The notes beneath the pieces are model-generated. The model was not told the DNA's origin. It did not search any database and saw only the letters and a list, made by a program, of their open reading frames with translations. From a virus: a stretch of DNA of 16,477 bases. Of this stretch, positions 1 through 16,477 are shown in pieces (position 1 is the stretch's first letter; every line of letters begins with the position of its first letter). Position numbers and translations under genes: made by a program. Location of the stretch: IMG/VR virus record IMGVR_UViG_3300045988_151306. One strand, 5' to 3'.

Positions 1-55
1 CACAAAGAAACCCCGCGCACCTGATCTAGCCGAGTCCAGGCACGCGGGGTTGGGA
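1..55. repeat. Left inverted terminal repeat (ITR), 55 bp, exact reverse complement of 16423..16477
   Basis: Positions 1-55 (cacaaagaaaccccgcgcacctgatctagccgagtccaggcacgcggggttggga) equal the reverse complement of the last 55 nt of the window. Identity breaks at position 56 (t vs a). An internal 9-bp inverted repeat (aaccccgcg/cgcggggtt) lies inside the ITR. Confidence 0.9.
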
Positions 56-3061: not shown

Positions 3062-3997
3062 TCAACTCCTCTCAATAAGCGTGTCGTAGCGGTGCCGCAT
3101 GTCGTAATTGTCGGTGATGTTGTCGCGCGCCCACACCACGGTCACAGGTTCCGTCAACCTGCCACCGAATCGCGCATTGAGCTTATCGCACGCGGCTCTG
3201 CGCGTGGTGAGCGGTGAAAGGCGCGCGAGCTCGGTCGGCTGCATGGTCGAGTTTACCTCGTCCTCGATCATGCGCTCTTCCTTGAATGGCATGGAGTCGA
3301 TGCCCAGCTCGCGGTAGATCGCATCCCACGTGTTAGCCCAGTCCTGCTGGAGTTTGTCCCCGATATACTCCTTGGCGCGCTCGGGCATGGTCGCGCTGGT
3401 CTGGATGTCGCTAAAGTTGTCATATGCGAGGACGAAAGGCTCGCCGTTGGCTATGTTCTTGTAGAAGTTCTGCACGTCGAATGCGCGGTCTTGCGGCCCG
3501 GTGATGACCAATGGCATGCGCATGTGATAACGGTTGATCTGCTTCGTGCGCATGATGTCGGTCAGCTCGCGCGCCCATATGTTAATCTTGACCATGAGCG
3601 GGTAGCGCGTCGAATTGTCCCAAATCCATACGCCGTTCGTCCAATTGCATAGAAAATCGGTCTTACCGGTCGCGCCAATCGCGCGCCATGCACGAGGCTC
3701 GTCGTACATGTTCGGCGCGCCCTGCTGCACGCATTTGAGCGATAAAAGCGTATCACTGGTGAGCGACGGATATGCGAGAGTTGCGGCTCCCTCAGTTAAT
3801 AGTACCCATTCCAGATAACGTTCGTTGCACGTCTCGGGGAGTCCCACCCAGCGGAAGCGCGATAGAGCAAGCTCGATAAGGTCGTTTTGGAACATGTTGA
3901 ACAACTGCTGGTTGTACGCTTCGGTTTGCCAGTACGTCGCTTGCTGTCCCGGCCTGAACGGTTTTTTCTGCTTGTAGCCCCTGCGGCCCTTGCTCAT
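3062..3997 (-). CDS. Head-tail connector / portal protein (phi29 gp10-like)
   Basis: 311 aa (phi29 gp10 is 309 aa). By-eye alignment to phi29 gp10: F-R-W-VGLPET vs FEWENLPPT, EERMIEDEVNSTMQPTE vs KKERMVTDEVSSNDEQIE, AACDKLNARFG vs EACEKINELYG. RBS AAGGAGGT lies 6 nt before the ATG at 3997. Confidence 0.85.
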   Translation of the reverse strand: MSKGRRGYKQKKPFRPGQQATYWQTEAYNQQLFNMFQNDLIELALSRFRWVGLPETCNERYLEWVLLTEGAATLAYPSLTSDTLLSLKCVQQGAPNMYDEPRAWRAIGATGKTDFLCNWTNGVWIWDNSTRYPLMVKINIWARELTDIMRTKQINRYHMRMPLVITGPQDRAFDVQNFYKNIANGEPFVLAYDNFSDIQTSATMPERAKEYIGDKLQQDWANTWDAIYRELGIDSMPFKEERMIEDEVNSTMQPTELARLSPLTTRRAACDKLNARFGGRLTEPVTVVWARDNITDNYDMRHRYDTLIERS

Positions 3998-6778: not shown

Positions 6779-8155
6779 CTATGCGATGGTGATGTCAACG
6801 GTCGCGGTGTACTTGCTCGTCGCGCCGGACGGATTCACGTAAGACGTGGTGCCGGTGACGTGCAGGACGTTGTTCGCCTCCAGATCGGACTTCTGCACGT
6901 GCAGCACGCCCAGACGATCGACGCGCGTCGCGGAGTTGAGCGCAAGCGGTTCGCCCTCGCTCGCCGCGGTCTCGCCTGAAACGCTCCACGTCACCGCGTC
7001 TGGCGCAACCTCGATGCCCTCGTCATTCGCGGTTACGGTGCCGGTGAGCTCCACGGTCATCTGCGTGGACTCGCCCGGCTTAAGGCTGGTCTTGGCAGCG
7101 GTGATGTTCACGCCGGTGACGGACTGCGTGATGGTGGAGACGGTGGTAGGCGCGTCGGTAGTGAACAGGATCGCAGGGACGAACGGGGACGCGCTCACGA
7201 CCTCCCAGTGGTGCAGGTAGTAGTTCGTGCTGAGGGTCTGAGGATTGTAGAAAGACTCGTTCGCGTAGACGTAGTCGTTGCAGACAAAGAAATTATCGGT
7301 GGTGAGCAGGGCGAAGGCGTTGGGGATGGGAAGCTCGGGAACCTCGATGGTGCGGTATGCGGCCTCGGCCTTGTCCAGATTGAACACGCTCGCGAGGGTG
7401 TCGACGTCGATGGAAGCGGCTGCGTCCGCGGTGATGAAAAGCACGAGCTCCTCGGGCTTGGCGAAGGTGGGAATGCCGTACTCGGCGGACACGGGGGAGT
7501 AAAGCGACGTCGGGAACTTAAGCTTCTTGGCGTAGGCGCGAACCGCCTTCAGGAACTCCTTACCGGTCGCCTCGTCGGTCGGGGCGGCGCTCACCTGATG
7601 CTTGTAGAAACCCCAGTTCCGCTCGTAATATGCGAGCTGGTTGAGCATGCACAGGTACTCGTCGTAATTGTCTGAATTGCGCGGAGCGGTCATGATCGCG
7701 TCGATGAGGCGGTTCAGGCCCATCTCGTCGGCGAAAGCCTGCTGCAGATCGGGGAGCTCGACGCTGATGTCGTAACGGTCCTTGCGGTTGACGGTGTGAT
7801 ACCACACTGCGGCCTCGGGGCGGCTCACCTTAAGCAGCGTTGCATCGTCCACGTCGTAGGTGTGCGCCTTGATCCACTTGAGCGCGGACTCCTGAATGGC
7901 CGAACCGTAGCGGAGATTTGCGCCCTTGAAGACGGTGAGCGGATTCTCCCACTGGTTGTTATGCACGATCTGCGTGCCGATGCGATTGACGAAAGCGTCC
8001 ACGAACTCGTTCAGATAACGTCGGTTCATGGGGTCGAAAAGAAACTTGCTGGTCGCGTCGATGCCCTCGATGGTCGGGTTCGGCACGCGCTGCTGAAAAT
8101 CGTTGGTGCCGGAAAGGTACACGCGGCCCGCGATGGTGGTGTTGTTGGTTGCCAT
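6779..8155 (-). CDS. Major capsid protein (phi29 gp8-like) with C-terminal BIG2 Ig-like domain
   Basis: 458 aa (phi29 gp8 is about 448 aa). Matches to gp8: [10 protein letters not shown] vs [26 protein letters not shown] vs [35 protein letters not shown] vs [31 protein letters not shown] vs YWNYYYHVWQTLS. The C-terminus [27 protein letters not shown]...VTWSVSG is a Big_2-type fold. RBS AAGGAGGG is present. Confidence 0.85.
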   Translation of the reverse strand: [458 protein letters not shown]

Positions 8156-8169
8156 GTAAAGTTCCCTCC

Positions 8170-8472
8170 TTAAAGGTCAAGGTCAAGCTCGTCGTAATCG
8201 GGGATGACCGCCACGTCGTCCTCGATGATGTCAGCATCCCCATCACCGTCAACATCGCGCACGCTCGCTCCGTTGTCGATGTCGATTGCCTCGGCGGTTG
8301 TTCGCATTGCGGTGAGCATGTCGGTGATGCCCTGCAACATCCCTTCCATGCGCTCTAGCCGGTCGCGCAAATCGTCGAACTCGCCAATGCGGTGGGCTTC
8401 CTCGCCGTCAACGCCTGCGGTCCGCTCGATCTCCTGCTCATCCGGGGCCAGATTGTCATTCTGCTCGTCCAT
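8170..8472 (-). CDS. Head scaffolding protein (phi29 gp7-like)
   Basis: 100 aa from ATG at 8472 (RBS AAAGGAG). Highly acidic and helical, immediately upstream of the capsid gene (gp7 is 98 aa). The ORF-track start at 8592 lacks an RBS and would consume the regulatory gap. Confidence 0.65.
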   Translation of the reverse strand: MDEQNDNLAPDEQEIERTAGVDGEEAHRIGEFDDLRDRLERMEGMLQGITDMLTAMRTTAEAIDIDNGASVRDVDGDGDADIIEDDVAVIPDYDELDLDL

Positions 8473-8684
8473 GCGCTTACTCCTTTCGTGTATATAAGTT
8501 GAGCGCGACCACGCGAGGTTGTTACCTGCGTAGTCGCGCTCATTATAACGCATGGCGAAGCTGAGGCACGTTCCATTGAAACACGTAGCCAACTCGCGCG
8601 GGGTTCGGGTACCGACTGAACGGTACAGCTTCCCGAATCATCCCTACTCACGGATTTTCGTGCTCGCCGTCGCTCGCGTCACAT
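8473..8684 (-). promoter_or_regulatory. 212-nt non-coding region between the packaging ATPase and scaffold genes: late-promoter candidate (-10 TATAAT at 8542..8547, weak -35) followed by a 10-bp-arm inverted repeat (8500..8509 / 8533..8542). Also a candidate locus for a packaging RNA
   Basis: No ORF with an RBS. A perfect TATAAT on the minus strand directly abuts tgagcgcgac...gtcgcgctca. A second hairpin gtaccg-ttcagt-cggtac lies at about 8600..8620. The position is equivalent to the phi29 late A3 promoter upstream of gene 7. Confidence 0.4.
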
Positions 8685-9755
8685 TTACTTTACCCCATAC
8701 AAAGCCATCGCGTCTAGGAAACCTTCGCGCACCTTCACACTCTCAAAAAGCACGCTCCCCTCGTAATACATCTGAACGATCACCCTAAGCGTCTTGCTAA
8801 CCCGCTGCGCTGCGATGCGGTTTGGGGTGTTGTCCTTGCGCGTTAGCGCGTACACGTTACCCGCGTTATTTGGTATCTTTCCGGTGACGTGGTAGTACCC
8901 TTCGGAAATGTCAATCCAGATTCCGTACTCCGTTCCCATATGAACGCACCCCATGACGTACTTCGCGCGCGGGGGCTTCTTGGCGATGTAACGGTTATCC
9001 TCGGCGAAGTCGTTCGCGTAGGTTGCTTTTGCGTAACCGGTCACCCGCCCCATTCGACCCGCAAGGGTGTGCTCCATGCGGTAAGCATCGTGCTCGTCGG
9101 ACTCAACGATGTGCAACAGGCACATCTTGTCGAGATACCACGTGTACCCGAATTTAGGTACGCCAGTCACACCAAACGCGGCGAAATAAGGATTAATCAA
9201 GTCAACTGCGTTGCCCAACAAGAACAGACGCGGCTTCACGCGATTCTCGTTATAGGCGTCCTCGCGCGCCAAAGAATCGATCATGCGGCTCAACGTATTC
9301 CATTCATCGCGCTTGTACTGATGTGAGCTGTCGATTTTTTCCATAATGGCCTCGTCGAAAATAATATTCTCGACGTTTACGAACGTGCTTTTTTTCGCTC
9401 GCTGCAATTCGGCGAAACCGACTATGTAACCACACGTCTTCCACGGCGTGCCCTTCTTCGAGTTCTTCGGGCGGTATTTGAACTCGTCCGCCTTGCACAT
9501 ATATTCATAGGCGCTAAATTCATCATCCGTGGCGATGAGCTTGTCAAAATAACTATGCTTCACCGCGTCGCGCTCGTTTAAAGTGCGGCACACCTCCACG
9601 AACCTCTGATCTTTCTTGATCGCGCGGTTGAGCGCATAGGCGCGAAGTCCGTATGTCTTTCCCTTGTTCGGCGCGCCGACGACCATAGTGATGTCTGCGT
9701 TGTAGGAAAGCGTTTTTTCCCAGTTGTAATGCACGCCGTCATTAAGATTTACCAT
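8685..9755 (-). CDS. DNA packaging ATPase (phi29 gp16-like encapsidation protein)
   Basis: 356 aa. Walker A is GAPNKGKT and Walker B is ENIIFDEA. Matches to gp16: KTLSYNADITMVVGAPNKGKTYGLRAYALNRAIK vs KMLSYDRILNFVIGARGIGKSYAMKVYPINRFIK, and LLGNAVDLINPYFAAFGV vs CLSNAVSVVNPYFLFFNL. The start overlaps the pol stop (ATGA-type coupling). Confidence 0.85.
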   Translation of the reverse strand: MVNLNDGVHYNWEKTLSYNADITMVVGAPNKGKTYGLRAYALNRAIKKDQRFVEVCRTLNERDAVKHSYFDKLIATDDEFSAYEYMCKADEFKYRPKNSKKGTPWKTCGYIVGFAELQRAKKSTFVNVENIIFDEAIMEKIDSSHQYKRDEWNTLSRMIDSLAREDAYNENRVKPRLFLLGNAVDLINPYFAAFGVTGVPKFGYTWYLDKMCLLHIVESDEHDAYRMEHTLAGRMGRVTGYAKATYANDFAEDNRYIAKKPPRAKYVMGCVHMGTEYGIWIDISEGYYHVTGKIPNNAGNVYALTRKDNTPNRIAAQRVSKTLRVIVQMYYEGSVLFESVKVREGFLDAMALYGVK

Positions 9756-12250
9756 TGCGCTTCATTCCCTTCATCGTCTATATACGTGTAGGTCGCCCGA
9801 TCGTCCTCAATATCTATTACGCGCTCTGTGGTGTCAACCGCGCGCCCGTACCGCTCTCGCATGTACGCGATGGTGCGGGCGTTGCCACCCTTATCCGCGT
9901 CTCCCAACAAGCGCTCGGACGGATACAGCGCGATTGACTCGTGCGTATGCACGTGGGACGTTTGCCCCGTGTAGTCGGTTATGTCCATGTCCAGCACGTC
10001 CGCCGCTGCCGGACGGTAATGCTCCAATGCATGGCAAACCGGTTGCGAGACGCGAACGCCCCATCCCAACACGCGTGGGGCCACCTCCTCGAATCCATGC
10101 ACCGCGCTCATGTCATCAATCCAATTCTCGATGTGATACATACCCGTCGGTCGCGATAGGCCCGCGCATGTGATGTGCGCGTGATGCCCGTCCCAGCTCA
10201 CGCGCGCCTTGTTCCAAGCGTCCATGTGCATGGGGTACGCCTCGCCCTCGACCTCGAATGTGCCAACTCCGGTGAGCGGTGAGGCGTAATCGGGGAAGTT
10301 CTTGCGCACGCGGCTCATGCATAGGTCGATTGATGCCGTCACCGCCTCGTGAAACGGAGCTAGTGCCCGCATGAGATCGCTTGCAGAAACATCTGCATCG
10401 CATGAGATTTTAAGTGAATCGGTGTCACCTCCCAGCACGCGCACGCGCTCGCCGAACGACTTATATACAAGCTCGATTGCCGCGACGATCGCCATGCGGG
10501 AACCTCCGACGATGCGAAGGCCGTAAGGATATAGAACGAGCTTCTTCTTAGCGTCCTCATAATGCTCCTTATATGTCTCGCGTGTTACGATCGTGTCACG
10601 ATCAACGCATATCTCACCAGCATCGACCTTGTATGCGCATTTGAACACGTCTTGCGCCTCCATTCCGTAAATCGAATTAAACATTCCCTTGACGGTGGAA
10701 TTGTAATAGGCCTCGAGGTCTGCGCGTTCCATCGCACCGCTGCGGATGCGCTCGGCGATTCCCTCGGGGATGCTGCCTGGTATCTCGCGCGTGTACGGCT
10801 CTCCCGTCTCGTATGTCTTAAGGATCTGCTTGCAAGCGTCCTTGCGCGCATAGAACAGATTAGACAACAACGTCACGTAGTCCGGCGGCTTAACGAAGCT
10901 CATTGTCCCCTCGCCTAAAATTACCTCCATCGCATCCCAGGCATACACGCGGCTCATGCACCACAGCTCCAGCTCAGAGACGTTCACGATGCACGACGCG
11001 GCTTGAACGAGCTTGCCGAACGCGAAGCGGCCGTTTTCGGCCACGTCCACGTACCCGGCACTGCGAACCGCCGTCACGGTGTCGCGGTCCGCCTCGCCTC
11101 CCCACTCGCCCAGCTGTCCGGAGCCCTTGAACTTCGCTTCGGATAGCAACGCGATGTCCCAGGACTCGAACGCGCTCCCCTCACGCAAGCGGAGGTTCTT
11201 GAACCTGATTTGCGCGTGGAACGCGTACCCGAAAGGCTCTTCCCAGTGCCGCATCGCCTGATCTAAATCAGTGCTGCAAACGCCCTCGGCCATCGCCTGC
11301 AGGATGCTCGGGAGGACGCCGCGAAAATTAACCGGCTGCATGTGGCCGTTGATGTAAGCATGGTGAGCGGACGTCTCGTCGATGCTGTAAACGTTTTTCT
11401 GCACGATGCCGGAATACCGCGCGGAGGTGAACGTGAAGCCTCCCCTGAAACACGCCTTACGCAGTGCGTATTGCGCGTAAGTCGGGGCGAGTTCCTCGGC
11501 ACACATGCGCTCGAACGCCGCTTGCACTGAGATCGGTTTGCCTTTTTCGCGCGGGATGCGCAGACGGCCAGTCTCCATCTTGCCCGCCTGACGCACAAGT
11601 GATGTCTTGGTCAGCACGCGCACGCCAAGCCATTCAGGCTTCAACCATTCATTCGATTCCAACAGATAACGCAGGTAAGCCGGAATCACCTCGGTGTCTC
11701 GACCTGCGTAATAAAGCTCCTCGTCGGTCAGCGGGGTTTCCGGAGTGCGAACCTTCGAGTAATCCCAATCACCAACGGCCTTCGGCAAACCGCACGTTTC
11801 TCCCATCTTCGCAAGTCCGCGCATCTCAAGATAAAAGGTGTCCCAGAACCGCAACTTGACCGCGCCGTCCTGCACGATGTCAACGGTGTATGCGCTCGTC
11901 GCGCTCTGCGCGCTCGCGACCATGTCCCAGCGCTCGTTAAGCTCGTACATGAGCGGTTGGAGGTCGAACATTAAGTTATAGGCGCATATGACCGGAATGC
12001 AATGCTCGTCTTCGCCCCACGTTATGTAATCGTCTATGACACGCTGCATGTCCTCGCCGTGCCGGTAAAACGACACGCGCCCCGAGCCCACCTCATATGT
12101 GCGCAGATCGCAACCGCGAACGTCATTCACGATGTAAAGCACCGGGTAGGCGCGCCACTGGTTCTCACGCTCGTCAATGCAGACGTTGCACGTCTCGGTG
12201 TCATACGCGGCTGCGATCTTGAATTGCGGTTTACGTTCCTTACACCCCAT
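9749..12250 (-). CDS. Protein-primed family-B DNA polymerase
   Basis: 833 aa. Exo I is YDTETCN, Kx3NSxYG is KGMFNSIYG, motif C is LGGDTDS. The size and inserted regions fit protein-primed PolB. It lies downstream of and translationally close to the terminal-protein candidate. Confidence 0.9.
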   Translation of the reverse strand: MGCKERKPQFKIAAAYDTETCNVCIDERENQWRAYPVLYIVNDVRGCDLRTYEVGSGRVSFYRHGEDMQRVIDDYITWGEDEHCIPVICAYNLMFDLQPLMYELNERWDMVASAQSATSAYTVDIVQDGAVKLRFWDTFYLEMRGLAKMGETCGLPKAVGDWDYSKVRTPETPLTDEELYYAGRDTEVIPAYLRYLLESNEWLKPEWLGVRVLTKTSLVRQAGKMETGRLRIPREKGKPISVQAAFERMCAEELAPTYAQYALRKACFRGGFTFTSARYSGIVQKNVYSIDETSAHHAYINGHMQPVNFRGVLPSILQAMAEGVCSTDLDQAMRHWEEPFGYAFHAQIRFKNLRLREGSAFESWDIALLSEAKFKGSGQLGEWGGEADRDTVTAVRSAGYVDVAENGRFAFGKLVQAASCIVNVSELELWCMSRVYAWDAMEVILGEGTMSFVKPPDYVTLLSNLFYARKDACKQILKTYETGEPYTREIPGSIPEGIAERIRSGAMERADLEAYYNSTVKGMFNSIYGMEAQDVFKCAYKVDAGEICVDRDTIVTRETYKEHYEDAKKKLVLYPYGLRIVGGSRMAIVAAIELVYKSFGERVRVLGGDTDSLKISCDADVSASDLMRALAPFHEAVTASIDLCMSRVRKNFPDYASPLTGVGTFEVEGEAYPMHMDAWNKARVSWDGHHAHITCAGLSRPTGMYHIENWIDDMSAVHGFEEVAPRVLGWGVRVSQPVCHALEHYRPAAADVLDMDITDYTGQTSHVHTHESIALYPSERLLGDADKGGNARTIAYMRERYGRAVDTTERVIDIEDDRATYTYIDDEGNEAQW

Positions 12251-12266
12251 GACCCTTTACCTTTGG

Positions 12267-12920
12267 CTACCCGAACATGACGACCCTTGATGCCCATATA
12301 GGCGAACCGATCAACTCAGCGTCGTATTCGACCTCGGAATAAAACGCCTCGTTCTCGTCGGTAAAACCCTCGACCTCGGAGGTCGGAACGCCTGATGCGA
12401 TCGCGGCTTTAAATGCCCGTTCGTTCGCGCGTAGAACCTTCTCAAACGCCTCGGAAAGCGATGACGCGCCTAAACCACGCATAATCAATCGGTTGCGCTC
12501 CTTAGGGTCTTTGCCGCGCCAATATCGACGCGTGGCCGCGTAAAAGACGTCAACGGCCTCCTTGCCGTGATCACCGAGTGTGCTTGGAGCTCCGATGCGC
12601 GCAAGATTGATTTGACGCTGAAAAAGCATGTCGGAACGCTCGCGCGAACTCTTGACCTTGCGAGGCGCGGAGGTCATGCGATCTAGTCGCTCGCCCGCGC
12701 TCTTCGCGCGTTTCTGCGCGCGCCGAACCTCCCGCACGTCTCGTGTGCCCTGATACGACTGTGTTATCTGCGCGCGCACGCTCTCCATGTAATCAGCTCT
12801 CGCGCGTTTCTGTGCGGTGCTCATACCGCTCACATCCTCGCGCTCCATGCGTGCCAGCAAACGCTTTGCGCGCCTGCGTGCGTTGTAAATCTCGTCCGAT
12901 GCGCGTTTAGCACGTGCCAT
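12267..12920 (-). CDS. Terminal protein (TP) candidate
   Basis: 217 aa from ATG at 12920 (MARAKRAS..., RBS GGAGG 8 nt upstream). The ORF-track extension to 12983 runs through a terminator hairpin. Very basic N-terminal half and acidic, Ser-containing C-terminus (EVEGFTDENEAFYSEVEYD) as in phi29 TP. It sits immediately upstream of pol as phi29 genes 3 and 2 do. Confidence 0.55.
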   Translation of the reverse strand: MARAKRASDEIYNARRRAKRLLARMEREDVSGMSTAQKRARADYMESVRAQITQSYQGTRDVREVRRAQKRAKSAGERLDRMTSAPRKVKSSRERSDMLFQRQINLARIGAPSTLGDHGKEAVDVFYAATRRYWRGKDPKERNRLIMRGLGASSLSEAFEKVLRANERAFKAAIASGVPTSEVEGFTDENEAFYSEVEYDAELIGSPIWASRVVMFG

Positions 12921-12930
12921 ATGCAATCCT

Positions 12931-12969
12931 CCAAAAGAAAAAAGGCGATGCGGTTTGAACCGCACCGCC
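12931..12969 (-). terminator. Intrinsic terminator between the SSB and TP genes, U-tract running into the TP RBS
   Basis: Minus-strand RNA ggcggugcgg-uucaaa-ccgcaucgcc (10-bp stem, one G.U) followed by uuuuuucuuuuGGAGGauugcaAUG. Confidence 0.6.
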
Positions 12970-13008
12970 AAAACGTAACGCAACGGGATTGAGGTTTGAA
13001 GACTTGAC

Positions 13009-13422
13009 TTAAATCAATACGAGCGTCTTGCGAGAGTTGCCATTCGGGAGCGTGGAAGAAACGAGCTTCATAGGAACGATCTCGCCATCATCGAACAAAC
13101 CCGCTGCCATGAAGTTATCAGCTGCGTTGCGAACGCCCTCGGACTGCGAGAAATAGGCGGAACCATCGGCGCACACGATGGTGGTGTTCGTGCAAAGGGT
13201 GTCGATGCCGTTCTTGTCACGAGCGCGACGCACGCCCGGCTTGGTGAAAACGCCGATGACGTTAAGCGTCTCGCCCTCATGGTTGGAAAGCGACTCGGCG
13301 TTGTTCATGGCGTTGACCACGAGCTTGCGAGTCTCAGCGTCTGCGGGCTTGATTGAGGAATAGTTAGAAGGCGCGTACAAATCAGTGGAATCGACGGTTG
13401 CGAGTTGGTTGGTATCAGTCAT
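13009..13422 (-). CDS. Single-stranded DNA-binding protein (phi29 p5-like)
   Basis: 137 aa. TTIVCADGSAYFSQSEGVRNAADNFMAAGL resembles phi29 p5 TTIFAADGSLYSAISKTVAEAASDLIDL, and the C-terminal KLVSSTLPNGNSRKTLVL resembles p5 KVKVVQGTSSKGNVFFSL. This is from memory of the p5 sequence. Confidence 0.5.
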   Translation of the reverse strand: MTDTNQLATVDSTDLYAPSNYSSIKPADAETRKLVVNAMNNAESLSNHEGETLNVIGVFTKPGVRRARDKNGIDTLCTNTTIVCADGSAYFSQSEGVRNAADNFMAAGLFDDGEIVPMKLVSSTLPNGNSRKTLVLI

Positions 13423-16027: not shown

Positions 16028-16396
16028 ATGATCGTTTACGAGTACACCAAGGATTGCGGTGATGAGACTCACACCGCGAACATTTACATCAATCGCGGTC
16101 ATATCTGGGTTTCCATCCAGGCCGCAAACAAAAGTTACGAGTACGACGTTAACACGCTTGAGGCAGCAACCGATCTTGTATTCAAGTACGGATTTGTTGA
16201 AGCTGATGGACCTATCGAGGTGATTGAAAAAATGACTACCTATAAGCAGTTCGACGTGCGCTATTTTGACTTCGCATACAACAACGAGCGCACGCGTACG
16301 TTCTCCGATCTCTCCGACGCGATGGAGTTCATGGAGTGGATCGTGTTGTGTCGTAAGCATCAGATGCGCTTCATTGCGCTCGAAAGTGTATACTAA
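16028..16396 (+). CDS. Hypothetical acidic protein, the only plus-strand gene, transcribed toward the right terminus
   Basis: 122 aa. RBS GGAAGGAG 7 nt before the ATG. The stop is 27 nt before the right ITR. GC is lower than the core. Confidence 0.6.
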   Translation: MIVYEYTKDCGDETHTANIYINRGHIWVSIQAANKSYEYDVNTLEAATDLVFKYGFVEADGPIEVIEKMTTYKQFDVRYFDFAYNNERTRTFSDLSDAMEFMEWIVLCRKHQMRFIALESVY

Positions 16397-16422
16397 GCCT
16401 CGCGCCCTCGTGCGCACCCCAT

Positions 16423-16477
16423 TCCCAACCCCGCGTGCCTGGACTCGGCTAGATCAGGTGCGCGGGGTTTCTTTGTG
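16423..16477. repeat. Right inverted terminal repeat (ITR), 55 bp
   Basis: Reverse complement of 16423..16477 is identical to 1..55. The window therefore appears to span a whole linear replicon. Confidence 0.9.

What the first reader, a model, noticed from the sequence alone, without database searches (positions are those of the whole stretch)
8473..8684. 212-nt gap beside the packaging ATPase gene: late-promoter/operator architecture and a candidate packaging RNA (pRNA) locus
All phi29-family motors studied require a roughly 120-174-nt pRNA, and no obvious pRNA gene is annotated here. This is the largest non-coding gap in the core and is adjacent to the gp16-like ATPase. It contains a perfect TATAAT with a poor -35 (activator-dependent, like phi29 A3) that directly abuts a 10-bp-arm inverted repeat. 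It also contains a further hairpin (gtaccg-ttcagt-cggtac). The stretch ttcaatggaacg on the transcribed strand loosely recalls the phi29 pRNA 5' end UCAAUGGUACGG, which may be coincidence.
Basis: partly seen in the sequence, partly recalled or inferred. Interest (0 to 1): 0.55.

Follow-up and report, generated by a model that had tools for sequence, protein, structure and literature searches.

The report
Packaging-RNA-like small RNA gene
The gap between the DNA-packaging ATPase gene and the capsid genes of this small phi29-like phage holds a conserved, strongly folded small RNA gene that is built like the "prohead RNA" of phi29 packaging motors, an RNA so far established only in Bacillus phages.

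Summary
The window is a complete 16.5-kb phi29-like genome with 55-bp terminal repeats and all genes on the minus strand. The 212-nt gap is kept in 62 related genomes, down to 42% ATPase identity. It always lies just upstream of the scaffold and capsid genes. On the gene-sense strand it folds into a roughly 136-nt domain (8681-8546): a long closing helix, a three-way junction, an arm with a 5'-side bulge and a hairpin. In 39 of 44 pairs, both sides change together. The bulge and the hairpin loop are complementary and co-vary between lineages (p about 3e-4), as do the "hands" of pRNA. A conserved TAnnnT -10 overlaps the ATPase stop codon and places the start of the RNA at the base of the helix. 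This hairpin is a U-tailed terminator in most lineages. Best reading (about 0.65): a divergent pRNA gene of about 185 nt, with the late promoter embedded ahead of its terminator. Rfam's pRNA model does not match, so I do not file it in that family. The resemblance to the phi29 pRNA 5' end is coincidence, and the inverted repeat is not an operator.

The parts
8711..8716 (-). -35-like hexamer TAGACG, 18 nt upstream of the P1 -10, inside the ATPase coding sequence (codons for FLDAM)
   Evidence: Reads TTGACG in L137, L139 and L161, and TGGACG, TCGACG or TAGACG elsewhere. It is constrained by coding, so it is weak evidence on its own.
8687..8692 (-). P1: -10 element TAAAGT overlapping the last codons and the stop codon of the ATPase gene. 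It predicts a transcription start near 8680, the first base of the closing helix.
   Evidence: A TAnnnT lies 9-13 nt before the start of the model match in 13 of the 15 lineages shown, and 16-24 nt before it in L161 and L162. The V/L/I codon that supplies its TA is NTA in all 17 codon contexts, against 10.6% NTA among V/L/I codons genome-wide.
8546..8681 (-). Domain I of the RNA: closing helix A (5' strand 8680-8647, 3' strand 8580-8548), two-nt junction UA (8646-8645), and a three-way junction
   Evidence: Models R1 and R2 give one match in the window, 131.5 and 127.9 bits. RNAalifold predicts 55 pairs, 20 of them compensatory. With distant lineages, 39 of 44 pairs are compensatory and 98.4% of cells are paired, against 33-44% when partners are slid.
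8632..8644 (-). 5' strand of the C-like helix (GGG-AU-G-A-UUCGGG); it pairs with 8609-8600
   Evidence: Almost invariant in close relatives (one of its ten pairs varies there). It covaries in distant ones: UUCGGG/CCCGAA becomes AGGGCG/CGCCCU, GGUUUG/CAAACC and others.
8626..8631 (-). Bulge loop AAGCUG on the 5' side of the C/E arm, the counterpart of the pRNA right-hand (CE) loop
   Evidence: Complementary to the D loop in 22 of 24 sequences, with partners that differ between lineages.
8610..8625 (-).
   Evidence: Three of its five pairs have compensatory changes among close relatives (UACCG, UAUCG, CACCG, CACCA), and all five do once distant lineages are added.
8581..8599 (-). D-like hairpin GCGCG-AGUUGGCUA-CGUGU; its loop, 8594-8586, is the counterpart of the pRNA left-hand loop
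   Evidence: Stem covariation. Loop complementarity to the bulge.
8542..8547 (-). P2: TATAAT, a conserved -10 element in the linker between domain I and the terminal hairpin; the probable late promoter
   Evidence: Invariant in 51 sequences. It reads TATACT, TACAAT, TATGAT or TATCAT in distant lineages, so positions 1, 2 and 6 are kept. In every lineage that has the hairpin, it lies 0-1 nt before that hairpin (L142 has none).
8501..8541 (-). Terminal hairpin of about 17 bp, the counterpart of pRNA domain II. It is a terminator-like element in most lineages; in this window the U tail is degenerate (AACUUAUAUA).
   Evidence: Compensatory pairs. Stems of 13-18 bp have unrelated sequences in 12 lineages, and 9 of 10 distant ones have a U-rich tail. 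20 G.U against 2 A.C.
8470..8486 (-). RBS AAAGGAG (8486-8480) and ATG (8472-8470) of the 100-aa acidic protein placed like a scaffold protein, the first late gene
   Evidence: The gene order scaffold-like ORF then capsid gene is conserved.
8685..9755 (-). gp16-type packaging ATPase gene (context; its 3' end carries P1)
   Evidence: PF05894, E = 4e-36.
3062..3997 (-). phi29-type connector (portal) gene with a basic N-terminus MSKGRRGYKQKK (context; the presumed docking partner)
   Evidence: PF05352, E = 3e-24. N-termini of relatives are equally basic, as is phi29 MARKRSN.

Best explanation
The gap is a small non-coding RNA gene of about 185 nt on the gene-sense (minus) strand, roughly 8680 to 8497. 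It most likely encodes this phage clade's version of the prohead (packaging) RNA.

Shown by sequence analysis:
- A -10 element that overlaps the ATPase stop codon places the 5' end at the base of a long closing helix.
- The first roughly 136 nt fold into helix A, a three-way junction, an arm carrying a 5'-side bulge and a terminal hairpin, and a second hairpin. This is the same order of elements as in phi29 pRNA domain I (A5'-C5'-CE loop-E-C3'-D-A3').
- The bulge and the loop of the second hairpin are complementary by 3-6 bases and change together between lineages.
- A short linker and a 13-18-bp hairpin follow, as domain II follows domain I in phi29. In most lineages this hairpin has the U tail of an intrinsic terminator.

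Inferred by analogy:
- Copies of the RNA join bulge to loop into a ring on the basic N-termini of the connector, and dock the gp16 ATPase through the distal helix A.
- The linker also carries a second conserved -10 (the TATAAT), placed 0-1 nt before the hairpin. Transcripts from this late promoter would start about 7 nt into the 5' arm, so they would lack the base of the stem, could not form the terminator next to the U tail, and would read into the scaffold and capsid genes. Transcripts of the RNA gene, and of the replication and ATPase operon upstream, would end at the hairpin.
For: Context:
- The window is a complete phi29-like genome with 55-bp inverted terminal repeats, a phi29-type connector, capsid protein, SSB and gp16 ATPase.

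Conservation:
- The gap is kept in 50 IMG/VR relatives and 12 more distant contigs. Its length is 165-227 nt, and it lies directly upstream of the scaffold-like gene.

Structure:
- 98.5% of cells are paired, and 21 pairs have compensatory changes in 51 close sequences, against 0-6 when partners are slid.
- 39 of 44 pairs are compensatory once nine distant lineages are added.
- G.U pairs that never vary (for example three pairs with GU in 50-51 of 51 sequences) fix the strand.
- Selection is comparable to coding sequence: 75% identity against 53% at third codon positions.

Loop-loop pairing:
- GCUA:UAGC, UGCC:GGCA, GUC:GAC, GGCU:AGCC, CCGC:GCGG, GGCC:GGCC, GCCU:AGGC, UGUGA:UCGCA and UUGUCA:UGGCAA.
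- The cognate score is 141. Loops permuted among 14 lineages give 119 +/- 6 (p = 3.5e-4) and shuffled loops give 109 +/- 7 (p = 5e-5). E-loop controls give 87-88.

Own promoter:
- A TAnnnT lies 9-13 nt before the start of the model match in most lineages, and the codon that supplies its TA is always NTA, against a 10.6% background.

End of the RNA:
- A hairpin with a U tail in most lineages.

Uniqueness:
- With filters off, the model finds a single match in the window, and the terminal non-coding region is not unusually structured.

Synteny:
[quoted passage not shown] Here the RNA ends the replication/ATPase block.

Connector:
- Its N-termini are strongly basic, like the phi29 N-terminus that interacts with pRNA (PMC1636484).
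Against: - There is no expression, prohead-binding or packaging data.
- Rfam RF00044 gives no match even at E <= 10 on a 281-nt slice.
- My broader model R2 does not find the pRNAs of phi29, Nf, MG-B1 or Bfsp1. The in-register R1 match to the phi29 pRNA locus is not significant (6.9 bits, E = 4.4). Homology is therefore not shown.
- The junction differs from phi29: a two-nt UA linker between helices A and C, rather than a U-rich bulge between C and D.
- Bulge-loop complementarity is weak (2 G-C pairs) in L136 and L138. Sequence cannot tell intermolecular pairing from an intramolecular pseudoknot.
- In the window's own lineage the hairpin lacks a good U tail.
- One lineage (L141) keeps a comparable fold but is not matched by the model.
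- Whether every phi29-like motor needs a pRNA is itself unknown.
Confidence: 0.65

Rival explanations
1. A cis-acting leader of the late operon. P1 would be the late promoter, the folded domain would be a sensor or a protein-binding site, and the hairpin would be an attenuator whose read-through sets scaffold and capsid expression (riboswitch-like or antitermination-type control). The bulge-loop pairing would then be an intramolecular pseudoknot.
For: The layout promoter, structured domain, terminator hairpin, RBS and ATG is the classic attenuator layout. The element tracks the scaffold and capsid genes rather than the ATPase gene in L144 and, at borderline significance, in L143. The possible analogue in Bifidobacterium phages has no second -10. 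Three-way junctions with tertiary loop contacts are common in riboswitch aptamers (general knowledge).
Against: No alternative antiterminator-type pairing between the domain and either hairpin arm exceeds shuffled controls (mean z = -0.2 over 12 lineages). This reading does not explain the second -10, conserved in a TAnnnT pattern 0-1 nt before the hairpin. The U tail is lost in the window's own lineage and the hairpin is absent in L142 while the domain is kept. No Rfam cis-regulatory family matches.
Confidence: 0.15
2. A trans-acting phage small RNA with a function other than packaging, for example regulation of host or phage mRNAs or sequestration of a host protein, that happens to share a three-way-junction shape with pRNA.
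For: It has its own promoter and a terminal hairpin. There is no demonstrable sequence or model-level homology to known pRNAs.
Against: The specific pRNA signature, a 5'-side bulge in one arm that is complementary to the loop of the other arm and co-varies with it, is present. Regulatory small RNAs usually keep a single-stranded seed, whereas here almost every base is paired or belongs to the two complementary loops. Strict linkage to the morphogenesis genes of a phi29-type motor across ATPase identities of 42-99%.
Confidence: 0.1
3. A passive intergenic element: a processing or stability structure at the 3' end of the ATPase message and the 5' end of the late message, with no function of its own beyond setting RNA ends.
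For: It sits at an operon boundary. The terminal hairpin could stabilise 3' or 5' ends.
Against: A 136-nt, three-helix domain with 44 maintained pairs, invariant junction motifs (GAGUAGGG, CCCCGC, GUUUCA) and co-varying loops is far more than end protection needs. The conserved -10 just before the helix indicates a dedicated transcript.
Confidence: 0.07
4. A DNA-level promoter and operator only (the first half of the reader's title): the repeats are protein-binding sites and no functional RNA is made.
For: A perfect -10 abuts an inverted repeat.
Against: Helices keep G.U pairs, which would be A.C mismatches on the other strand. Repeat sequences are unrelated between lineages while the pairing is kept. 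Covariation extends over 136 nt upstream of the -10.
Confidence: 0.03

Closest known systems
phi29-family prohead/packaging RNA (pRNA; Rfam RF00044 Phage_pRNA; phages phi29, PZA, Nf/M2, B103, SF5, GA-1, and the DLc1 and Goe4 groups)
   Same: - It is encoded by a protein-primed phage with a phi29-type connector and gp16 ATPase.
- It is a small gene with its own promoter and a terminal hairpin, about 185 nt against 174 nt.
- Domain I closes through a long bulged helix of the 5' and 3' ends.
- It has a three-way junction with the element order A5'-C5'-bulge loop-E hairpin-C3'-D hairpin-A3'.
- The bulge loop is complementary to the D loop by 2-6 bases, with G-C pairs at the core, and the two co-vary.
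- A single-stranded linker and a second hairpin domain follow.
- It is placed at the end of the replication gene block.
   Different: - There is no detectable sequence or covariance-model similarity. That test is weak, because RF00044 at its gathering score also misses the annotated Nf pRNA.
- Domain I is about 136 nt, not 117.
- The junction has a UA linker between helices A and C, and no U-rich bulge between C and D.
- The D loop is 8-9 nt.
- No CCA bulge is identifiable in helix A.
- The gene lies in the middle of a genome with all genes on one strand, between gp16 and the scaffold gene, not near a genome end.
- Its linker holds a conserved -10 for the next operon.
- It is G+C-rich (58-72%), and the phages come from human-associated metagenomes; one contig was binned with Collinsella.
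Packaging RNAs predicted in non-Bacillus relatives (Actinomyces phage Av-1 record, misc_RNA 16295-16402; Streptococcus phage Cp-1)
   Same: They are proposals that phi29-like phages outside Bacillus also carry a pRNA. Av-1 infects an actinobacterium and has most of its genes on one strand.
   Different: The Av-1 feature lies near the right end and overlaps ORFs on the opposite strand. It folds weakly (-14.6 kcal/mol for 108 nt), and my model does not match it. A covariance model could not reliably find the Cp-1 pRNA (PMC6266182). I found no covariation support for either in the papers I read. The RNA described here has that support.
Transcription-attenuating leaders and riboswitches with three-way junctions (for example the purine riboswitch architecture)
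   Same: A promoter, a folded three-way-junction domain with a tertiary loop contact, a terminator hairpin, then RBS and gene.
   Different: No mutually exclusive antiterminator pairing. A second promoter element sits between the domain and the terminator. No Rfam family matches. The closing helix is about 25 bp, much longer than a riboswitch P1.

Membership tests
phi29-type pRNA (functional class) | Encoded by a phage with a phi29-type connector (gp10) and gp16 packaging ATPase | tested here: met
   PF05352 (E = 3e-24), PF05894 (E = 4e-36) and PF25622 capsid; 55-bp terminal repeats.
phi29-type pRNA (functional class) | Domain I: the 5' and 3' ends pair in a long bulged helix A that leads to a three-way junction with a C/E arm and a D hairpin | tested here: met
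   RNAalifold and pair counts: 98.4-98.5% of cells paired, and 21 pairs (close set) or 39 of 44 pairs (with distant lineages) compensatory.
phi29-type pRNA (functional class) | A right-hand (CE bulge) loop complementary to the left-hand (D) loop by at least 2 G-C pairs, co-varying between phages | tested here: met
   22 of 24 sequences have 3-6 contiguous pairs and two have 2 G-C pairs. Cognate pairing exceeds permuted pairing, p = 3.5e-4. Whether the pairing is intermolecular cannot be told from sequence.
phi29-type pRNA (functional class) | A discrete transcript with its own promoter, and a domain II hairpin or terminator after a single-stranded linker | tested here: met
   At sequence level only: a conserved -10 across the ATPase stop, a linker, and a covarying hairpin with a U tail in most lineages. 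The transcript itself was not observed.
phi29-type pRNA (functional class) | U-rich bulge at the junction and a CCA-type bulge in helix A that contacts gp16 | tested here: inconclusive
   An invariant GUUU lies at the D/A junction, but it is predicted to be paired. Helix A has conserved bulges but no CCA.
phi29-type pRNA (functional class) | Binds the connector on proheads as a ring and is required for DNA packaging | not testable with these tools
   Only an indirect hint: the basic connector N-termini are conserved.
Rfam RF00044 Phage_pRNA (sequence/structure family) | Covariance-model score at or above the gathering threshold (100 bits) | tested here: not met
   No match at the gathering score or at E <= 10 in the window, in a 281-nt slice, or at the gathering score in nine relatives. 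The same model at its gathering score finds only the phi29 pRNA and misses Nf, MG-B1 and Bfsp1.
Intrinsic terminator (the terminal hairpin) | A G+C-rich stem immediately followed by a U tract | tested here: inconclusive
   Met in L136, L137, L138, L139, L141, L144, L159 and L161, and partly in L140 and the largest close group. Not met in the window itself (AACUUAUAUA) or in L162, and L142 has no hairpin.
Sigma-70-type promoter (P1 and P2) | A -10 hexamer TAnnnT conserved at a fixed position; a -35 hexamer 16-18 nt upstream | tested here: inconclusive
   The -10 is conserved for both. The -35 is partial for P1 (TTGACG to TAGACG, within coding sequence) and absent for P2. Start sites were not mapped. 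The consensus scan did not list either site.

The most novel reading that the evidence does not exclude
Packaging RNAs are not a peculiarity of Bacillus phages. On this reading, a second, sequence-unrelated class of pRNA serves phi29-type motors in G+C-rich phages from human-associated metagenomes; one contig was binned with Collinsella, and Bifidobacterium phages may carry a more distant analogue. This class is built as a promoter-to-terminator gene at the boundary between early and late genes. The late promoter is embedded in its linker, so late transcripts would start inside the terminator stem and escape it. If so, an RNA component is ancestral to this whole motor lineage.
Probability: 0.55. 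Interest if true: 0.8.

Novelty: new variant of a known kind. Interest (0 to 1): 0.72.

Why it matters
pRNA is the only known RNA that is an essential part of a viral DNA-packaging motor, and its role is still debated. A 2024 review calls it a feature unique to phi29 and related Bacillus phages (PMC11476376). The latest structure-based survey, from 2025, added only relatives of the Bacillus-phage pRNAs used as search seeds (PMC12670572).

A well-supported pRNA-like RNA in a distant, G+C-rich clade would matter in four ways.
- It makes the question "do all phi29-type motors use an RNA?" directly testable.
- It offers new G+C-rich three-way junctions and kissing-loop pairs for RNA nanotechnology, which relies heavily on the phi29 junction.
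- It gives annotators of gut viromes a model for an RNA gene that Rfam 15 did not detect in these genomes.

The arrangement of a promoter inside the linker ahead of a terminator would also be a compact way to separate early and late transcription in a genome with all genes on one strand.

Tried and rejected
- **Rfam:** searches at the gathering score and at E <= 10 on the whole window and on a 281-nt slice gave no pRNA and only chance-level hits elsewhere.
- **Near-identical DNA in GenBank phages:** none found.
- **Motif search (AGTAGGGANGATTCNGG) in IMG/VR:** 84 stretches, but only those from the clade already in hand matched the RNA model. The rest are chance.
- **IMG/VR scans with two distant ATPases:** no new lineages.
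- **Homology to known pRNAs through my own models:**
  - R1 placed a weak, in-register hit on the phi29 pRNA locus (E = 4.4).
  - The broader R2 found none of the phi29, Nf, MG-B1 or Bfsp1 pRNAs, so I do not count this as evidence.
- **R2 on other phi29-like genomes:** nothing in Av-1, BadAztec1, OP549880 or MT835826.
- **Promoter-like TTGACA-17-GATATT at 9837-9809, ahead of the ATPase gene:** not conserved in relatives, so rejected as chance.
- **A pRNA near a genome end, as in phi29:** the 207-nt left terminal region has no unusual fold (z = -1.5 and -0.1) and no model match.
- **Coding potential of the gap:** one- and two-base insertions and deletions between relatives rule out the overlapping ORFs (8170-8592, 8355-8651, 8552-8788).
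- **Antiterminator-type alternative pairing:** none above shuffled controls.
Full report
**What the window is**

The window is a complete linear genome of 16,477 bp. It has 55-bp perfect inverted terminal repeats and 55.6% G+C. All large ORFs lie on the minus strand. Pfam identifies four phi29-type proteins:
- a connector (3062-3997);
- a capsid protein (6779-8155);
- a gp16 packaging ATPase (8685-9755);
- a single-strand DNA-binding protein (13009-13422).

Read in the direction of transcription, the order is: small early genes, lysin, SSB, a 238-aa and an 833-aa protein, ATPase, the gap, a 100-aa acidic protein, capsid protein, tail, connector, and a fibre protein. No GenBank phage is similar at the DNA level. 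The closest ATPase in that collection is 41% identical.

**The observation**

- The gap is 8473-8684.
- TATAAT lies at 8547-8542 on the minus strand, without a -35.
- An inverted repeat starts one base later. It is in fact about 17 pairs long (8541-8501).
- The hairpin gtaccg/cggtac lies at 8626-8609.
- ttcaatggaacg lies at 8580-8569.
- The gap is the largest internal non-coding stretch.
- As RNA, the sense strand folds at -87.4 kcal/mol with z = -4.25. The predicted transcript 8682-8495 folds at -85.5 kcal/mol with z = -4.62.

**Conservation**

- Fifty IMG/VR contigs encode an ATPase 77-84% identical to the window's, and all contain the gap. Its length is 213-216 nt in the 36 of them in which the script located the next start codon.
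- Twelve more distant contigs from ENA and Logan assemblies (ATPase 42-70% identical) mostly keep the gene order. They have a gap of 165-227 nt directly upstream of the scaffold-like gene.
- In L144, two small ORFs separate the ATPase gene from the gap. In the rearranged L143, a borderline model match again lies just upstream of the scaffold gene. The element therefore tracks the boundary between the replication/ATPase block and the structural genes, not the ATPase gene itself.
- Domain identity to the window averages 75.2%. The ATPase gene averages 75.8%, and its third codon positions only 52.9%.
- One- and two-base insertions and deletions exclude a coding function.

**The structure is real and lies on the sense strand**

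- On 51 sequences, RNAalifold predicts 55 pairs, 20 with compensatory double changes and almost none broken.
- For the structure plus a bulge-loop helix, 98.5% of cells are paired and 21 pairs have double changes. With the 3' partners slid by 1-3 columns, 30-46% of cells are paired and 0-6 pairs have double changes.
- A covariance model built from the close set (R1) finds the same position in ten of the twelve distant contigs. E-values run from 5e-14 to 0.015 with default filters, and from 2e-11 to 9e-4 with filters off. L141 gives no match, and L143 gives only a borderline match to the broader model.
- On the resulting 24-sequence alignment, 39 of 44 pairs show compensatory changes and 98.4% of cells are paired. 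That alignment is fitted to the model, which favours the structure. The slid controls still give only 33-44%.
- The C-like helix is almost invariant among close relatives (one of its ten pairs varies there) but changes in distant ones, from UUCGGG/CCCGAA to AGGGCG/CGCCCU, GGUUUG/CAAACC and others.
- G.U pairs that never vary would be A.C mismatches on the other strand. This fixes the RNA on the gene-sense strand and rules out a purely DNA-level element.

**Anatomy (window coordinates, minus strand)**

| Element | Coordinates |
|---|---|
| Helix A, about 25 pairs with bulges | 8680-8647 with 8580-8548 |
| Junction UA | 8646-8645 |
| C-like helix | 8644-8632 with 8609-8600 |
| Bulge AAGCUG on its 5' side | 8631-8626 |
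| E-like hairpin | 8625-8610 |
| D-like hairpin | 8599-8581 |
| Nine-base loop of the D-like hairpin | 8594-8586 |

GAGUAGGG, CCCCGC and GUUUCA at the junction are the most conserved motifs. This is the same order of elements as in phi29 pRNA domain I, as described in PMC5066667.

**Bulge-loop complementarity**

- The bulge and the D loop can pair by 3-6 contiguous bases in 22 of 24 sequences. The paired bases differ between lineages:
  - GCUA:UAGC, UGCC:GGCA, GUC:GAC
  - GGCU:AGCC, CCGC:GCGG, GGCC:GGCC
  - GCCU:AGGC, UGUGA:UCGCA, UUGUCA:UGGCAA
- Two lineages have only two G-C pairs.
- Over 14 deep lineages the cognate score is 141.
  - Loops exchanged among lineages give 119 +/- 6 (p = 3.5e-4).
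  - Loop letters shuffled give 109 +/- 7 (p = 5e-5).
  - Controls with the E loop give 87-88.
- Complementary, co-varying right- and left-hand loops are the signature used to recognise pRNAs (PMC12670572).
- Sequence cannot say whether the pairing here is between molecules or within one.

**A gene with its own signals**

- Upstream of helix A, a TAnnnT hexamer overlaps the last codons and the stop codon of the ATPase gene. In the window it is TAAAGT, 8692-8687. Elsewhere it reads TAAAAT, TACGAT, TATAAT, TATCAT or TAAGAT.
- It starts 9-13 nt before the start of the model match in most lineages.
- The V/L/I codon that supplies its TA is GTA, CTA or ATA in all 17 codon contexts seen, while neighbouring wobble positions vary freely. 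Only 10.6% of V/L/I codons in this genome end in TA. This points to selection on a -10 element.
- That -10 places the start of the RNA at about 8680, the first base of helix A.
- A -35-like T[TGAC]GACG lies 17-18 nt upstream, but it is within coding sequence.

**The second -10 and the terminal hairpin**

In distant lineages it reads TATACT, TACAAT, TATGAT or TATCAT, so positions 1, 2 and 6 are kept.
- It lies 0-1 nt before a hairpin of 13-18 pairs.
- The hairpin keeps its pairing while its sequence is unrelated between lineages. It shows 20 G.U against 2 A.C in 702 pairs.
- A U-rich tail follows it in 9 of 10 distant lineages. The window's own lineage does not have one.
- I therefore read it as an RNA hairpin or terminator, the counterpart of pRNA domain II, and not as an operator.
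- Inference: transcripts from the second -10 would start about 7 nt into the 5' arm. They would lack the base of the stem next to the U tail and could read into the late genes. Transcripts from upstream would end at the hairpin.

**Is anything else in the genome a better pRNA candidate?**

No.
- With filters off, the broader model R2 gives one match in the window, 127.9 bits at 8546-8681. Everything else has E >= 0.6.
- The 207-nt left terminal region is not unusually structured.
- The TTGACA-17-GATATT promoter match ahead of the ATPase gene is not conserved.

**Comparison with known pRNAs**

- RF00044 does not match. This is a weak negative. At its 100-bit gathering score the model finds only the phi29 pRNA, and misses the annotated packaging RNA of Nf as well as MG-B1 and Bfsp1.
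- R1 run over phi29 puts its second-best hit exactly on the pRNA locus and in register, but at 6.9 bits and E = 4.4. R2 does not reproduce this in four Bacillus-group phages. Homology is therefore neither shown nor excluded.
- Architecture, loop signature, two-domain layout, size and position at the end of the replication gene block all agree with pRNA (PMC6266182).
- The junction details, the loop sizes, the central position in a genome with all genes on one strand, and the embedded promoter differ.
- The connector N-terminus is strongly basic, as in phi29, where that N-terminus interacts with pRNA (PMC1636484).

**Rival explanations**

- The main rival is a cis-acting attenuator leader for the late genes. 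Three results speak against it:
  - the conserved second -10;
  - the lack of any alternative pairing between the domain and the hairpin arms (mean z = -0.2);
  - retention of the domain where the U tail or the hairpin has been lost.
- A different trans-acting small RNA, or a passive processing element, cannot be excluded without experiments.
- A DNA-only promoter and operator is contradicted by the strand-specific covariation.

**Novelty**

- The papers I read place established pRNAs in phi29 and related Bacillus phages (PMC11476376, PMC12670572).
- Predicted pRNAs exist for Cp-1 and Av-1 (PMC6266182). I found no covariation support for them in those papers.
- I file this RNA as a new variant of a known kind. 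It works like a pRNA by every test that sequence allows, but it does not meet the Rfam family's threshold, and its function is unproven.

Noticed in passing
window 1-55 and 16423-16477: The genome ends in 55-bp perfect inverted terminal repeats, much longer than the 6-bp repeats of phi29. Each contains an internal G+C-rich hairpin (AACCCCGCGCACCUG...CAGGCACGCGGGGUU).
   Followed up: partly
window 14754-14680 and 6770-6704 (minus strand): Two more places have the same layout as the finding. A TATAAT is followed 14-15 nt later by a strong terminator-like hairpin with a U tail (14734-14707 and 6749-6720), then directly by an RBS and ATG. All five TATAAT in the window are on the gene strand. The terminator after the capsid gene is conserved in most distant lineages checked, but its TATAAT is not.
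   Followed up: partly
L174 (CALGKS010000032.1, 15.5-kb contig): A close relative (ATPase 79% identical) sits in a metagenome bin labelled as an uncultured Collinsella species. This is a hint at the host, resting on binning only.
   Followed up: no
L172 12676-12870 (minus strand; Bifidobacterium phage BadAztec1) and L173 126-320 (BadAargau2): The gap between the polymerase gene and the scaffold-like gene of these isolated honeybee-gut phages has a -10 (TATAGT or TATAAT). A closed domain of about 115 nt containing CAGUAGG and a UUAAGU-loop hairpin follows, then a G+C-rich hairpin. Four pairs change on both sides between the two phages. It may be a distant analogue, but my model does not match it and only two distinct sequences exist.
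   Followed up: partly
L169 16295-16402 and 4465-4615 (Actinomyces phage Av-1): The Av-1 record annotates a 'packaging RNA' that overlaps ORFs on the opposite strand and folds weakly (-14.6 kcal/mol). Its gap ahead of ORF 8, the gene before the capsid gene, has a strong hairpin with a U tail placed directly before the RBS, like the arrangement here.
   Followed up: partly
L137 45-116 and L141 622-693 (minus strand): Two distant relatives carry a tRNA gene near one genome end. The window has none.
   Followed up: no
window 9749-12250 (minus strand): The 833-aa protein in the position of the DNA polymerase has no Pfam match at E <= 0.01. The protein in the same position in OP549880 is annotated as DNA polymerase B. 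Its stop overlaps the ATPase start (9749-9755), which suggests that the two are expressed together.
   Followed up: no
L142 8538-8708: This lineage keeps domain I and the TATAAT but has no terminal hairpin. Only about 20 nt separate the -10 from the called start codon, so the late message there would have a very short leader or none.
   Followed up: no
window 12969-12944 (minus strand): A strong terminator-like hairpin with a U tail lies inside the 5' end of the listed 238-aa ORF (12267-12983, TTG start). This suggests that the true start of that gene is further downstream.
   Followed up: no
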